From Podarcis gaigeae (Eukaryota), in the NCBI GenBank assembly GCA_964106915.2, contig OZ066926.1: a DNA stretch of 64,000 bases, one strand, 5' to 3'. The notes under the pieces are model-generated. The model was given only the letters and a program-made list of their open reading frames with translations, was not told the DNA's origin and searched no databases. The position numbers and the translations under genes were made by a program. Positions 38,706 to 46,699 of this stretch are shown here, one piece after another. Within the stretch, counting starts at the first letter, position 1. Each line of letters begins with the position of its first letter.

Positions 38706-40952
38706 CCAACTGGTATACTGGAGGGAGCCATCTCTTCATTCATCAAAAGCCTTCAAATTCATTCTGATGCTCTCAAGATGTCAAGTATCACCAGAAGCAG
38801 AGAAAACGAAAAAAGCTGCCTATTCCAGGGCCTGGGTGGGCTTGTAACACAAGCTCCCATCTCAAAAGCACATCCAGAGAAAGGTATAAAGAACTGCTTT
38901 TGGGAGGAGTTGCATCCTTGCAGGTTCACACTTGTAATCTTGATGGCCTAAGATGTAACTGTTGCCCTAGACCAGGTAAGAGTTCTCTTCTTCACCAGAA
39001 AGTCACTAGGAGATGCACTGCTCAGTGTTAAATGAGGGGTAGATGCAGTAATCTAGCAACAATCAGAAGTGTAGTAATTTTGTCAGAATAAACCAGTCTT
39101 CTAGGTGTGAGCAACCTCCGTTCCTTCAGATGTTGAACTAAAAGCCCCCTCATCCCTGACCACTTCTCATGCTTGTTGGGCTGATGGGAGTTGCAGGTCA
39201 GCCACATCTGAAGGGACAAAAGTTCCCCATACCTGTTTTAATGTGCCACAAGCCAAGGTTCTTAAAACGTTTAGCTAGAAATTGTGCACTATGCTACAAA
39301 TGAGAAGCCCTTGCTTCCCATAGTGTGTGGGGAAGGATGTGGGCATTCCATGACCAAGGAAAAGGCATTCTTTGTACAAACTGGTGTTGTTGCAAAGGGA
39401 TCCTTCTCCCACTCGCTTTTCATGTTTGACCACCACATCCCATTTTTCTACACGTGACACAAATCTTTCCAGTCACTGCCCTAAGGGCAGGTCATTACTG
39501 TAACTTGACAGGCCTCGAGAATGTTGACACAGGAAACTAGTTGTTGAGAGAACGACGTTTTGAGGCAAAAAGAAAGTACAAGCTCAGCTAATCTGATGCT
39601 GCATCTGGCGACTCTTTAGCTTGTGTATGTTTTCATAAACAGCCTGGTGTGTGCAAAGGCCATGTCACTGGGGAGCCTGGAAGAGCAGAGGGGGGCACAG
39701 ATCTGCAGCAGTGTTTAAAGAAAGCAGTGACTTCTAGTTTATTACTAGGGACTAGGCTATACCAGTGAGCATATATGCTCAACACTTGCCATGCACTCAA
39801 ACCCTGTACAAACCAGCAGGAACAACCTGCCATACCAGATGTGTTAAAGCTTTAAAACAAAAAAAGAAAATCATTTTAGACAAAGCTACCTTTGTCTAAA
39901 ACTGCACCTGACCAATTAATAATTGAAGTTAATTTTTGTATCCTGTGCTGTTCCAGTTTACCTGAACGTTAATTCGAGCCACCCTGCTCCCATTTAAATC
40001 AACTGCAGTCACAGGTTGTCTGATTTCAATCTTATTCTAGGGTTGTAGATTCTCATTTCTTGTTGGCAAGCCAAATCTCTTACTGGAAACTCTGGGAGTC
40101 CCTGCCAATTTGTCTCCAAGGCGAGGTGACTCAGAGCTTCAAGCTGCTCTGATAAAACTTGGAAGGCTAATTTAACTTCAACTTCTGTTTGCTTGGAAGT
40201 CTCCTTAAAAGCAATGAGACACAGCACACATGGGAGGTGTATGCAAAGTTGGCACCCAAAGCGCTCAATTATGCTCCCGGACCCCAAATCTCTCACTTTT
40301 CCACCTGCCATCTGTTCCTGTAGATTTGCCTCCGGGAAAGATCCCAACTTGTTTCCTGCCAATTTCTTTACTCATCGCTCACCTTTATGCTATTTTCAGC
40401 AGCGATCGTTTCCATCTACTGGAGATAAGGATTGCAATTCAGCTATACATATATGCATGCTAATTCCAGGAATAATCCCCCTTGAGTGTACAGAAAAACA
40501 AGGGGTAGTATTATGGGTCCAGGGAATGAATGACCCAGGCAGCCACTGGGAATGGCCTCTCCTCTAGATTTGTTTTGACTTTCCAAGGCAAGGGGGAGGG
40601 GGTTGGCAGAAGACAAAAAACAACTGCTCCTTGTTTTTGGACCCTTCTGTGTGCAATGGAGTCAACCATTTCATAGATGGAAAAGAGGCGTGTATATGTT
40701 AAGAGTACAGTATTGGCCTCAAATGCACTGTACCCTCCTCAGCCACACTCCACTACTAGCCCCATTCCCAACCAACAATTGGCTGCTGCTCCTTCCTATG
40801 CAGATGTCCTGTTTGCTAGGAACCAACCTCAACTGAGTTGCTCATTCGAACAGAGCGCCCCATGCGAGATCACTTGTTGCAGGTATTATCAGGTATTTTT
40901 GAGATGCACCCCCGACACTAGAAGGGCTACAATATTTTATCCACAAATATTT

Positions 40953-40958
40953 TTTATT
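40953..40958 (-). terminator. RPS9: RPS9 polyadenylation signal
   Basis: TTTATT on + (AATAAA on -), ~70 nt after the stop. Confidence 0.85.
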
Positions 40959-41029
40959 GTGTAATGTTACAGTTAAGGCAGGCTTGATTCCCCACCGGCA
41001 TGTGCGGGGGGGGGGGGGCACCCCACAGC

Positions 41030-41230
<201 letters not shown>

Positions 41231-42141
41231 TTACAGACGTTCCAGCTAAACCCGGCAGCATTCTTCTTAAGAACGGTTTTTCACAGAACTAGAAAGCTAA
41301 AGTGATTGACGGAAGAGAGCCAAGTGAGGAATCAAGTGATCACCCCCCAATTCCAGCACTCAGGGAGCTTAAAATTTAAAAGCTCAGCGTTTGGGAACAT
41401 GGACATTAACATCCTGCTCCTATTATCAAAGCCAGGGTTAACCTCAGCCCCTTCCTTAATTAACACTGCAATGAATTCCTAAACATGATACTCAGAACTA
41501 AGCCCCACCATTCAGTAGGCTTTTCTTACACATTAATAAGTGTTTTACAATACAACTCAATGCAACTATGCCCTCACAACTTCTTACTCGCAAACTGCTC
41601 ACAGAACAAAGGTTCAGAACCAACCAACAGGAAATGCTTGGGAGAAACTGACTCAAGTTTGACATTTACTGCTGCTGCCCTCAGTATACAATGGCAAGAT
41701 GAATGCCTGGTTATCCTGAAAACTGGGTGTAACAGCAGACAATTTGCTAACGAGGGATAACATTAACACTTTGTGCCAAGAAGGAGCAGAGTTGCTAGTT
41801 GTTACCTCTACTGCCCACACGCCAAGACCTTCGCAAGGTGTACGGCTGAGCCGCAGTGAACCTTGCCGAAATTGTTGGTGCTTTTGGCATACAGCCTCAT
41901 TAGGCAGACTGCAGGGCTTTTAGGTTATCCAGGGTTCCAGTCCATGGGAGGGATTGGTGGGGTAAAAAGACACACGGCTGGGACATGTCCACACATCTCC
42001 CTGCACAGGCCACACATAAGAGACATCAGATGCATTACTTCAGAGGTAGACCCTGTCTTTACAGCCCACAGCAACTCAGTCATTGCTTCTGGCTTCTGCT
42101 TAAGTGAAATGCCATTTCTAAACATACTCCAAGGCAACCTA

Positions 42142-42378
<237 letters not shown>

Positions 42379-43226
42379 CTAGAGAAGTGGGCACAAGATT
42401 CATGTATTTTGGTACGTCTTATGTGGCCATGTAAAAAGCATTCTCTATGAAATACTAATGACGGGTAGGGGAGAGAAGAGGAAGAAATGGCACCAAGTTG
42501 ACGACAGCATTTGAAACTCCCTTTGTTCTAGGCGCATTTTGCGACAGGGAATTTCATTAGTGTGAGCAGTTTCTGAGCTCTGGGTGCAGTACTGCGCCTA
42601 AGATTTCATATTAAAATTGCCACTGCTAGAAGGAAAAGAGGACCCTTTTCTGCCTCCCCACTTTCAGCCATTCTGAAGACTGGAGAAGGGACCCTCATAA
42701 GATTCTAGGGGTGGGCAGGGGAAGTATGGATTTGTTTTTTGCAGTCTTCAGATAAGGACCAGACCATGTGAAAACTGAATTTAAGATTTTACCTGCAGTT
42801 CATTCATTTTCAGCTTTGTATTCTTGTTATGAAAAAGTGAACCTAGAAACTATTGCAGCACCCATAACCTAGGTTTAAGGTGCCATTTAGCTCCTAGCTT
42901 TCACATCTCAGTTTCTAACACAGGTTGACACGTTTAGTTACATACTACTAAGCAGCACTATAGTATATTACATTGACCTTGAAATCACAGTTTAAATCCC
43001 AACTCAGCCACAAATGGTGGGCAGTCTTTGAGAAGAGAGTCACTCTCAGCCTTAGTCTCTGATCTGAAATATGGGACTGATTTAAAAGATTCTCAAGACA
43101 ATATATAAATATAATTACAGCAGGGAAAAAAGAACAATTCAACATAGGTAACTGATATTAATCCAATAGATATGGTCTATTCACTTAAATCTAACACAAG
43201 AAATAAGCACATCTGAAAGGCATTAA

Positions 43227-43227
<1 letters not shown>

Positions 43228-43294
<67 letters not shown>
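43228..43294. repeat. Compound (CA)n(GA)n microsatellite
   Basis: Direct read. Confidence 0.9.
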
Positions 43295-43295
<1 letters not shown>

Positions 43296-43488
43296 CCTGT
43301 ATCTAAGTAGTATTTACAATAATATCTATATAACACATTGAAATCTAAAACCAGATACCATCAACTAACCATTATGGAAAGATGTAAACATTACAACTGT
43401 CCATAACAGTAAGTTGATAATCTCTGGTTTTAAATTTAATAGGACCAGATCCAAGAAACTGGTAGGATTCATAAAGGAAGTGAACTCA

Positions 43489-43788
<300 letters not shown>

Positions 43789-43805
43789 TCATCCAGGATA
43801 AACTA

Positions 43806-43910
<105 letters not shown>

Positions 43911-45414
43911 CTAAAGGGAGTCCAGTCCTGTGGAGAAAAAAGTTGAGATCTATATAAGTGGCAGGCAGATGAAACAAGTGAAGCAAATGAAGTTTTGATA
44001 TATTTCACAGCTACTTCTCTGTATAATTTATTATTACAGTCTCTCATTTCATTTATACATTCATCCAAACCTATGACGTAGGCTAGGCCGGCTAGGAATT
44101 TCAAGTCTAATGTAAGCCTTTCCTACTTGTAAGGTCAATACTACCCAATGAACCACACCACCCAAACTGAGCTCAGGGTAAATTCAATACAAGTTTTGTT
44201 TTTTGGAATCTAGACTGACCCTTAACTGACACTACTGGACACCAGAGGGTCACAATTGTTCTTTGTAAATTTGTGTTGAAGCCCTTAAGGTGATATAAAT
44301 CATGTAAGTTTACCCATTTGAAAGGGGAGAATAGTTTGTTGAAGCAATATGCCACTTTGGACCACTTGCTATATCCAAAAGAAAGCAGCTACTTGCAGCC
44401 AGTCAGCATTTCAGTGCAGATACTGAATTACAGCAAGCAACTAAAGTACACTTTTTACAATAAACCAGCAAGGCCCTTTGGCCCCTTTTAAAGTCCTGTC
44501 CTGCACAAACTAAGCTAAGCAAGACCTGTAATATATGTGGCACAATTTACTGCTACTTCAGTATTTTAATATGGTCAATATTTTAATATGGATATAATTT
44601 GAGCAGGAAAAAAAAGTGTGTGATTCCATATAACAATGGTTAAGCCCAAACGCTCCCAACTGAGCAGGGAGGTATGAGAATTTGTGAAATGCTCAAAGAT
44701 GTTATGGACCATCAGCAAAATAATCTCAAAGAAAGGCACATTCCCTACTCCTCATATCAAGGATGATTTTGCATAAGCAGCATTCACCCACCCAGCCTCT
44801 GGGAAGGAAACATTTAACACTGAATCAACTCAAACTGACCAAAGTTTTGAAAACGATCCCACCAAAATTATAGAAAAAAGGGAGCACCTAGAAATAGCTG
44901 CTATTTTTTCAGCAACACGTGGGGTGACACCAAGTCAGAGAATTGCAGAGTTGGAAGGGACCAAGAGGATCATCTAGTAGGAATCTTTCTGGCCAACGTG
45001 ACACTTGTAAAATTCACAAGACAGAGAAGGCTAATTCCCCTTTAAAAAATAATTCAAATCACGTGAGACCGGCGGTTCGAGGGAGCGTGTTTAATCCCCA
45101 CCATCCACGAATCCCCCGAATAGGCCGAGCAGCACCGCGGCAGCAACCATGCGACACGTGTGATCTGCGCACGCGGGGCTGCCCTAGTTCTATAGCCCGC
45201 ACATGCGCATTGAGTGAGTGAGGCGGGGGCCGCGCGAATAAATCCTCCAACTCCCTGATTTAAAGTGGATTCGCAACCGCTAAGGCACTTCTAGCAGCTG
45301 GTTGCCGAGAACAATTTATTTGGAGTCACTTAAAACGTCCTTCTCGGCCACCGGGGCGCTTCTTATTCCCCGACACCGCGCCTCGGGTCGCCGTGAAACA
45401 AAACCTCCACTTAC

Positions 45415-45452
45415 CTTCCGACGCACTTGACGGCCACTACTAAAAGGAAGGG
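45415..45452 (-). other. RPS9: RPS9 non-coding exon 1 with 5' TOP tract
   Basis: Minus CTCCCTTCCTTTT (TCT/TOP initiator) and donor AAG|GTAAGT at 45414. Confidence 0.88.
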
Positions 45453-45585
45453 AGCGGCCTACGAAGGTTGCTTATATAACTCGTGCCATGCCCCGCCTAC
45501 CGTCTCCGCTAGCCAATAGCAAGGCGACGTCTTTCCTGCCTAACCTATTGGCGGAGGGCTGCTTCGCGGCGCGGTAACCAATTAG
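45453..45585 (-). promoter_or_regulatory. RPS9: RPS9 core promoter
   Basis: TATATAAG at 45478-45471; GC box 45491-45498; CCAAT/ATTGG at 45513, 45547 and 45578; CpG island. Confidence 0.8.
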
Positions 45586-46699
45586 CGCTTGCTCCAAGGA
45601 TGATAGAGAAGAAGACGTAGAGTGGTCGAGGGGAGGGTAGCACGTTGCATTAACGGTCCAGGAGTCGGCAGCGTCTGTGTGCCGAGTGGAGCCGCCATTG
45701 CTTTGTGGGGGTTGGAGCCCTAACAGAGGTATTCATTGGGGCCGGGGAGTTTCTCCCTCGTTGTCCGCGCCATCCCTGCCTGCGGTTTGAAGTTGGCTGA
45801 AGCGAATAAACAGGCGTCCCTGCTGCTTTCTGAAACCGACTGTCTCAACGGTTCCTTATAACGCCTCCCCCCCCCCGTGCCCTGAACCATAGAGATGCCA
45901 AAGAACCCACAATGCGTTTCCGCTCCCTTTTCGTTATAGAGATACACACAAAAAAAGTAGAGTCGAACATGTCTTCGCCGCTGTTTCTCACTTCCGGTCT
46001 TTAGACCCGGCGTTCTACTCTGTTTCTATCAAAAGAAACGCGTGGCCAGTGACGGCTTTTTCTGGTTGTGTGCGTGTGTAGTATAGGATGCGTGTCAGCT
46101 CTTAGTATTTTCTGTCTCCATGCTCTCACCCAGTAGTACCCTAGTATACAGCAACTATGGCCATTCAGTACCTTATGAGAGGCAGAGGGGGAAAGATGGT
46201 GCTTTAGTCACAGCCGCTCTGGCTATTGGGTGATGGCAAGAAGCGTGTGTGCAGCAAAAAGTGGCTAATTGATTTGGTAAATAATAAGGGGCGGGGCGGG
46301 GGGACATGGGCAGAGAAAGTGTTGGGAGCTCAGGCAGCTTCAGACATTTCTTTTTTTATAGAAAAAAACAATATTATACATCAGTTTACATAAACTTAAA
46401 CTATGGTATATTATACATACAATACATATATTACTTACCTACATACTCAGACATTTCTTTTCCCCGATTTGATGGGGGCAGAGATGGCATGCACTGCAGA
46501 GACCTGTGTGTGTGTGTGTGTGTGTAGTGGCCCATCTCTCTTTGCCCACCCAGGTACTCTGCAGAACCTGGCCAGGCCTGGTGAAGCAAGCAGAAAACTG
46601 CTTGGACCCATGCTTTCTTAGGCATGGGACAAGCGGAAGTGTGGAAGAGCCCTAAATGTCTTTGCGGAAAACTATTCCAGAGGGTCACTCCGCTGGGAA

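What the first reader, a model, noticed from the sequence alone, without database searches (positions are those of the whole stretch)
41800..42030. RPS9 intron 4: structured hairpin plus cryptic donor, a candidate autoregulatory poison exon
Seen on the sense (minus) strand at 41870-41830: UUCG(G)CAAGGU-UCAC-UGCGGC-UCA-GCCGUA-C-ACCUUG-CGAA, a two-stem hairpin with an asymmetric internal loop, retaining CpGs in a CpG-poor intron. A donor GAG|GTAACA follows 24 nt later (41805). A candidate acceptor TGTGCAG| at 42001 would give a 195-nt exon with an in-frame TAA at 41927-41925, ~120 nt before the junction. Extending exon 4 instead hits TAG at once. Both products satisfy the NMD rule. Established: uS4/RPS9 autoregulates across life, through splicing in eukaryotes. 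From memory a very similar element lies in human RPS9 intron 4; this is unverified. Inference: the hairpin is the uS4-sensing switch.
Basis: partly seen in the sequence, partly recalled or inferred. Interest (0 to 1): 0.75.

Follow-up and report, generated by a model that had tools for sequence, protein, structure and literature searches.

The report
Conserved hairpin in RPS9 poison exon
The last intron of this reptile's ribosomal protein S9 gene holds a predicted stop-containing extra exon with a predicted RNA hairpin whose sequence recurs in birds and mammals; it is likely the site where spare S9 protein would divert its own message to destruction, a feedback loop already outlined for vertebrates in 2012 but whose binding step is untested.

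Summary
Hairpin stability, CpG cluster and donor are each only modestly above chance. Comparison decides it. Nine of 100 non-canonical RPS9 isoform tails (6 birds, 3 mammals) translate the hairpin almost letter for letter. Four of these models join exon 5 21-32 nt after it. Eight squamate isoforms read this exon's frame, six stopping at the same codon. They start 9 nt upstream, where this genome has GG instead of AG, so the 42001 acceptor looks like an in-frame replacement. No compensatory pair was found, no fish or amphibian match, no 18S sequence mimicry, and no RNA junction data for this species. Poison exons with conserved predicted structure in the last RPS9 intron of vertebrates were reported in 2012 (PMC3315480), so this is a new member of a known kind. 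What it adds is a base-level candidate uS4 site with an invariant internal loop. Direct binding is inferred, about 55%.

The parts
42143..42329 (-). RPS9 exon 4 (coding); its donor opens the 935-nt last intron; read-through meets TAG at once
42025..42029 (-). branch-point-like yUnAy (A at 42026), 25 nt before the 42001 acceptor; predicted
42010..42011 (-). position of the acceptor implied by eight squamate isoform models; GG here, not AG (lost acceptor, polymorphism or assembly error)
42001..42002 (-). predicted acceptor AG in this genome, 9 nt downstream of the squamate site, same frame; first AG after the branch-point-like site
41806..42000 (-). predicted 195-nt poison cassette exon
41925..41927 (-). 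premature TAA, 119 nt before the predicted junction; same codon position in 6 of 8 squamate isoform tails
41830..41870 (-). amniote-conserved predicted hairpin: lower stem 41866-41861 with 41838-41833, internal loop 41860-41856 with 41840-41839, upper stem 41855-41850 with 41846-41841, variable apical loop 41849-41847
41800..41808 (-). cryptic 5' splice site (first intronic G 41805); junctions at a similar distance in hawk, pangolin, vole and panda models
41030..41207 (-). RPS9 exon 5 coding part (last exon)

Best explanation
This is the reptile copy of the vertebrate RPS9 last-intron element: a predicted poison exon carrying a predicted two-stem hairpin whose sequence is conserved in birds and mammals, which free uS4 protein likely binds at the internal loop, and this would favour use of the weak donor at 41805 and send the transcript to nonsense-mediated decay. 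Shown here: the anatomy, the in-frame stop meeting the 50-55 nt rule, conservation of the hairpin sequence and of the stop position, and gene models that join exon 5 just after the hairpin. Shown by others: PTC cassette exons in this intron of vertebrates, their rise when NMD is blocked in human and mouse cells, and RpS9-dependent unproductive splicing in fly. Inferred: that the hairpin forms in vivo, that uS4 binds it directly, that binding promotes inclusion, and that this species uses the AG at 42001 after losing the older acceptor 9 nt upstream. I put the poison exon at about 0.9 and direct uS4 sensing by this hairpin at about 0.55.
For: Hairpin translated in 9 of 100 isoform tails, scores 33-39.5 against 17.5 for the next best and at most 19.5 in 25 shuffles each. 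No change at 60 codon-forced cells of the upper stem or 22 of the internal loop; 2 of 53 changed in the lower stem, 5 of 10 in the apical loop; all indels lie in loops or at the bulge. An unpaired loop this invariant suggests a recognition surface (inference). Junction to exon 5 21-32 nt after the hairpin in 4 models, against 24 here (counted by hand from the peptides). Eight squamate tails follow this exon's frame; the six equal-length ones share 10-16 of 27 residues, so length and stop are kept while the peptide drifts. PMC3315480: PTC cassettes in the last intron of human, rat, frog and fish RPS9, RNAz structures over the PTCs, and fly RpS9 overexpression raises the PTC isoform. PMC12809107 and PMC11352633: the human and mouse isoform responds to NMD block. 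PMC4856989: yeast Rps9B recruitment needs an intronic two-helix structure with a central bulge. PMC4937301: L10a binds an element between two donors and switches donor choice.
Against: No compensatory change in 9 matches; the internal loop is as conserved as the stems, so conservation does not prove pairing (paired against all unpaired positions p 0.25, against the apical loop alone p 0.049; the species are not independent). Pair 41861-41838 is broken in 2 of 9 and 41860 is changed in all 5 gap-free cells. No sequence likeness to the genome's own 18S rRNA (53% of 300 shuffles score as well). No significant match in 13 fish, amphibian and turtle tails. The evidence is from gene-model proteins whose RNA support I could not see. 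The panda cassette has no internal stop and the hawk, pangolin and vole models stay in frame, so these four show the donor, not decay. Two other squamate entries (P0064, P0136) have unrelated tails. Plocik and Guthrie call direct binding 'mere speculation'; the yeast evidence in the passages I read is ChIP.
Confidence: 0.55

Rival explanations
1. The poison exon and hairpin are real, but the hairpin is read by a general splicing factor or sets exon strength passively; RPS9 level acts indirectly, or the exon answers to growth signals such as mTOR.
For: mTOR inhibitors strongly raise RPS9 and other poison exons in human cells (PMC12809107). No rRNA mimicry. L10ARE is not sufficient on its own and other factors are suspected (PMC4937301).
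Against: Translation inhibition also stabilises NMD targets (established). uS4 orthologues feed back in fly and yeast, in yeast through a two-helix intron structure.
Confidence: 0.27
2. uS4 binds the hairpin, but the main output in this lineage is retention of intron 4 or a 337-nt extension of exon 4, not cassette inclusion; the older acceptor was lost here because the cassette route is dispensable.
For: The squamate acceptor AG reads GG in this genome. Lamprey and fly use alternative donors. Human RT-PCR lists retained forms beside the poison forms. Extension meets a stop at once.
Against: An in-frame AG 9 nt downstream, with a branch-point-like site 25 nt before it, keeps frame and stop; it scores like the real exon 4 acceptor.
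Confidence: 0.13
3. The sequence is conserved for a linear reason (overlapping protein-binding motifs or a DNA element) and the fold is incidental.
For: No compensatory changes; 47 of 3,450 GC-matched windows fold as well.
Against: Substitutions and indels fall in the apical loop, loop edge and bulge; both arms are conserved around a variable loop.
Confidence: 0.05

Closest known systems
Vertebrate RPS9 last-intron PTC cassette exons with RNAz-predicted conserved structure (Plocik and Guthrie 2012, PMC3315480; human poison exon in PMC12809107; mouse in PMC11352633)
   Same: Same gene, same intron (the paper's human primers map to exons 4 and 5 and span the same 242 nt here), PTC cassette, conserved structured element.
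   Different: No reptile among the genomes that paper lists; its text gives no vertebrate fold and no binding test (figures not seen). Human inserts are 172 and 262 nt by my subtraction, against 195 here. The acceptor appears shifted by 9 nt in this lineage.
S. cerevisiae RPS9A intron two-way helical structure (Petibon 2016, PMC4856989)
   Same: Two helices around an internal bulge in an RPS9 intron, tied to uS4 feedback.
   Different: Inhibits splicing of the only intron rather than promoting a poison exon; non-homologous intron; sequence not compared here.
L10ARE of RPL10A/rpl-1 (Takei 2016, PMC4937301)
   Same: About 40-nt conserved element upstream of an unproductive donor in a ribosomal protein gene; no likeness to the rRNA site.
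   Different: Different protein; alternative donor rather than cassette; direct binding shown there, untested here.
Drosophila RpS9 AS-NMD autoregulation (PMC3315480)
   Same: Homologous intron, PTC isoform degraded by NMD.
   Different: Alternative 5' splice site, no cassette; the response to excess protein was shown there.

Membership tests
Vertebrate RPS9 last-intron poison exon element | Lies in the last intron of an RPS9 orthologue | tested here: met
Vertebrate RPS9 last-intron poison exon element | Cassette bounded by AG and GT that brings a PTC more than 50-55 nt before the last junction | tested here: met
   stop 119 nt before the junction; sites predicted from sequence
Vertebrate RPS9 last-intron poison exon element | High conservation at the element | tested here: met
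   6 birds, 3 mammals for the hairpin; 8 squamates for the exon frame; by back-translation of gene models, not DNA alignment
Vertebrate RPS9 last-intron poison exon element | Conserved RNA structure with covariation support | tested here: inconclusive
   stable fold, changes confined to loops and edges, no compensatory pair
Vertebrate RPS9 last-intron poison exon element | Isoform is spliced in this species and stabilised by NMD block | not tested
   no read data were laid; human and mouse evidence only
Ribosomal-protein autoregulatory RNA site (L10ARE, RPS9A type) | Direct, specific binding by the encoded protein and a splicing response to its level | not testable with these tools
   needs EMSA, CLIP or a minigene
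rRNA-mimic operator | Sequence likeness to the protein's rRNA site | tested here: not met
   hairpin, exon and intron score no better than shuffles against the genome's own 18S; three-dimensional mimicry not tested
Intronic snoRNA, miRNA or other Rfam family | Match to an Rfam model | tested here: not met
   none of 5 weak hits in 40500-46000 lies in intron 4

The most novel reading that the evidence does not exclude
The 41-nt hairpin is the vertebrate uS4 operator: a compact amniote-wide fold whose invariant asymmetric loop binds uS4 without copying 18S rRNA sequence and acts as a protein-switched enhancer of a poison donor, while the acceptor side turns over freely (here by a 9-nt in-frame shift). 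This would supply the binding site that the 2012 paper could only speculate on.
Probability: 0.5. Interest if true: 0.5.

Novelty: new member of a known kind. Interest (0 to 1): 0.32.

Why it matters
RPS9 is the case where ribosomal-protein feedback was traced from bacteria to animals, yet in the papers I read the vertebrate binding site was left as speculation. A 41-nt target with a mapped invariant loop, variable loop and homologous donor makes that question testable with a handful of mutants. The apparent loss and in-frame replacement of the acceptor is a small example of selection keeping a poison exon while its splice site turns over. The system itself is not new.

Tried and rejected
Sequencing runs: no RNA holder listed. 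Read laying returned no data, so splice-site use in this species and the GG at 42011-42010 stay open. Metagenome scan with a 17-nt piece of the 5' arm: 97 loci, 0 with the 3' arm or an RPS9 exon, all chance (the protein test used a wrong frame and was redone). Rfam: nothing in intron 4. 18S sequence mimicry rejected. By-eye likeness of the salmonid P0093 and paddlefish P0128 tails to the hairpin, including an apparent compensatory pair, rejected: 16 and 8 of 100 shuffles score as well; P0093 had been dropped by my trimming rule. Acceptor at 41977, which gives 172 nt like one human insert, set aside as probable coincidence because squamate models point to 42009. CpG enrichment is not significant after scan correction. 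Third protein search added no hairpin match. Earlier scan findings: none relevant. Human poison-exon coordinates not found in the supplements searched. One supplementary figure of PMC3315480 gave no text; figures are not held, and Figure 4 and S1 of that paper may show more than I could see. Alignment A1 was made and not used.

Full report
Observation. The minus strand carries RPS9: ATG at 43904, coding exons ending 43808, 43712-43590, 42329-42143 and from 41207, 194 aa. The last intron is 935 nt. The hairpin is at 41870-41830 as written, folds at -18.7 kcal/mol with z -3.12, keeps pair probabilities of 0.84-1.00 in four longer contexts and is single-copy. The donor at 41805 ranks second of 97 GT sites and the AG at 42002-42001 is the best-scoring internal acceptor (rough recalled matrices). 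The 195-nt cassette stops 119 nt before the junction; exon 4 extension stops at once. Taken singly these features are not far above chance: 47 of 3,450 GC-matched windows fold as well, a donor this good falls within 30 nt with p about 0.06, and the CpG cluster has p 0.12 after scan correction.

Conservation. The tools list no vertebrate genome collection, the own-genome search reports no relatives, and a metagenome scan gave 0 real homologues among 97 loci. I therefore used annotated RPS9 isoform proteins whose tails translate intronic sequence (320 proteins; each search listed only its best 120 of 3,327, 4,735 and 292 hits). Of 100 non-canonical tails of 10 aa or more, 9 match the hairpin in a frameshift-aware alignment: P0106 hawk, P0100, P0075, P0079, P0116, P0078 (passerines), P0111 panda, P0126 pangolin, P0114 vole. 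They score 33-39.5; the next is 17.5, and shuffles reach at most 19.5. Most of the other 91 end before the hairpin would be reached or come from distant groups, so they say little. At codon-forced positions the upper stem shows 0 changes in 60 cells, the internal loop 0 in 22, the lower stem 2 in 53 (both at 41861), the apical loop 5 in 10; position 41860 changes in all 5 gap-free cells, four passerines add a base there, and the mammals add a base in the apical loop and differ at the bulge. I grouped 41860 with the loop edge after seeing this. No compensatory pair was seen. Thirteen fish, amphibian and turtle tails gave no significant match.

Splice sites. Four models join exon 5 shortly after the hairpin: 21 nt (hawk), 30 (panda), 32 (pangolin, vole), against 24 here (counted by hand). 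The panda cassette is 199 nt. Eight squamate isoforms (two anoles, two geckos, four snakes) begin their tail with the same residues and follow the window's frame from 42008. Six have the same length and stop codon position, sharing 10-16 of 27 residues; one is a residue longer and one is frameshifted. This places the organism among squamates, closest to the anoles in this set (inference). Their exon start maps to 42009, where the window has GG instead of AG. Two squamate entries (P0064, P0136) have unrelated tails. All of these are gene models, and I could not see their RNA support or their downstream exons.

Mechanism. Most likely free uS4 binds the internal loop, favours the weak donor 24 nt downstream, and the included exon triggers NMD. 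The exon, stop geometry and conservation are shown; fold in vivo, binding and direction are inferred by analogy. The hairpin has no sequence likeness to the genome's own 18S rRNA and no Rfam match. Rivals are an indirect or growth-signal readout (0.27), retention or exon extension as the main output (0.13), and an incidental fold (0.05).

What is known. PMC3315480 (parts 2-6 of 7 read; figures not seen) reports PTC cassette exons in the last intron of human, rat, frog and fish RPS9, RNAz structures over the PTCs in mammals, flies and teleosts, and fly autoregulation; it calls direct binding speculation. PMC12809107 (passages and one supplement part) treats the RPS9 poison exon as well known and lists products of 242, 414, 504, 1087 and 1177 bp; the 242 matches the exon 4-5 span here, giving human inserts of 172, 262, 845 and 935 nt by subtraction. 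PMC11352633 (passages): the mouse inclusion isoform rises without SMG5. PMC4856989 (passages): yeast two-helix element, ChIP evidence. PMC4937301 (passages): L10ARE. PMC8047918 and PMC7025504 (passages) agree. PMC10351882, PMC11572221 and PMC13164374 (passages or supplements) added nothing. Nine searches listed no paper that, by title or abstract, gives the vertebrate fold or a binding test; the library lacks most subscription papers and bioRxiv supplements are closed.

Verdict. A real, conserved element and a new member of a known kind. Interest 0.32; about 0.5 if uS4 binding to this loop is shown.

Noticed in passing
window 43345-43434 (- strand, intron 3): A near-perfect 90-nt AT-rich hairpin, -43.2 kcal/mol, with miRNA-family hits far below cut-off. 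Its 3' arm has 6 partial matches elsewhere in the genome, so a repeat-derived inverted copy is more likely than a miRNA; it is a far stronger fold than the intron 4 hairpin.
   Followed up: partly
window 41208-42142: Intron 4 is 935 nt, the same as the largest human insert deduced from PMC12809107 (1177 minus 242). Probably coincidence; not explained.
   Followed up: partly
window 41716-41805: The cryptic donor and a fair acceptor at 41716/41715 enclose 90 nt, the same step that separates the human product pairs; a simpler reading puts the human 90 nt upstream of the exon.
   Followed up: no
window 41960-42015 and 41730-41785 (- strand): Two further predicted hairpins, one covering the 42001 acceptor (-17.4) and one downstream of the cryptic donor (-11.8, best z in the intron scan). 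Conservation unknown.
   Followed up: no
window 41946-41972 (- strand): A pyrimidine-rich tract inside the predicted exon with no AG until 41917; acceptors at 41916 or 41908 would not give an NMD-type stop within the cassette.
   Followed up: partly
window 43229-43296 (- strand, intron 3): Compound (TC)n(TG)n microsatellite.
   Followed up: no
P0181: A termite RPS9 isoform model also inserts a cassette-like stretch after exon 4 and enters the last exon out of frame.
   Followed up: no
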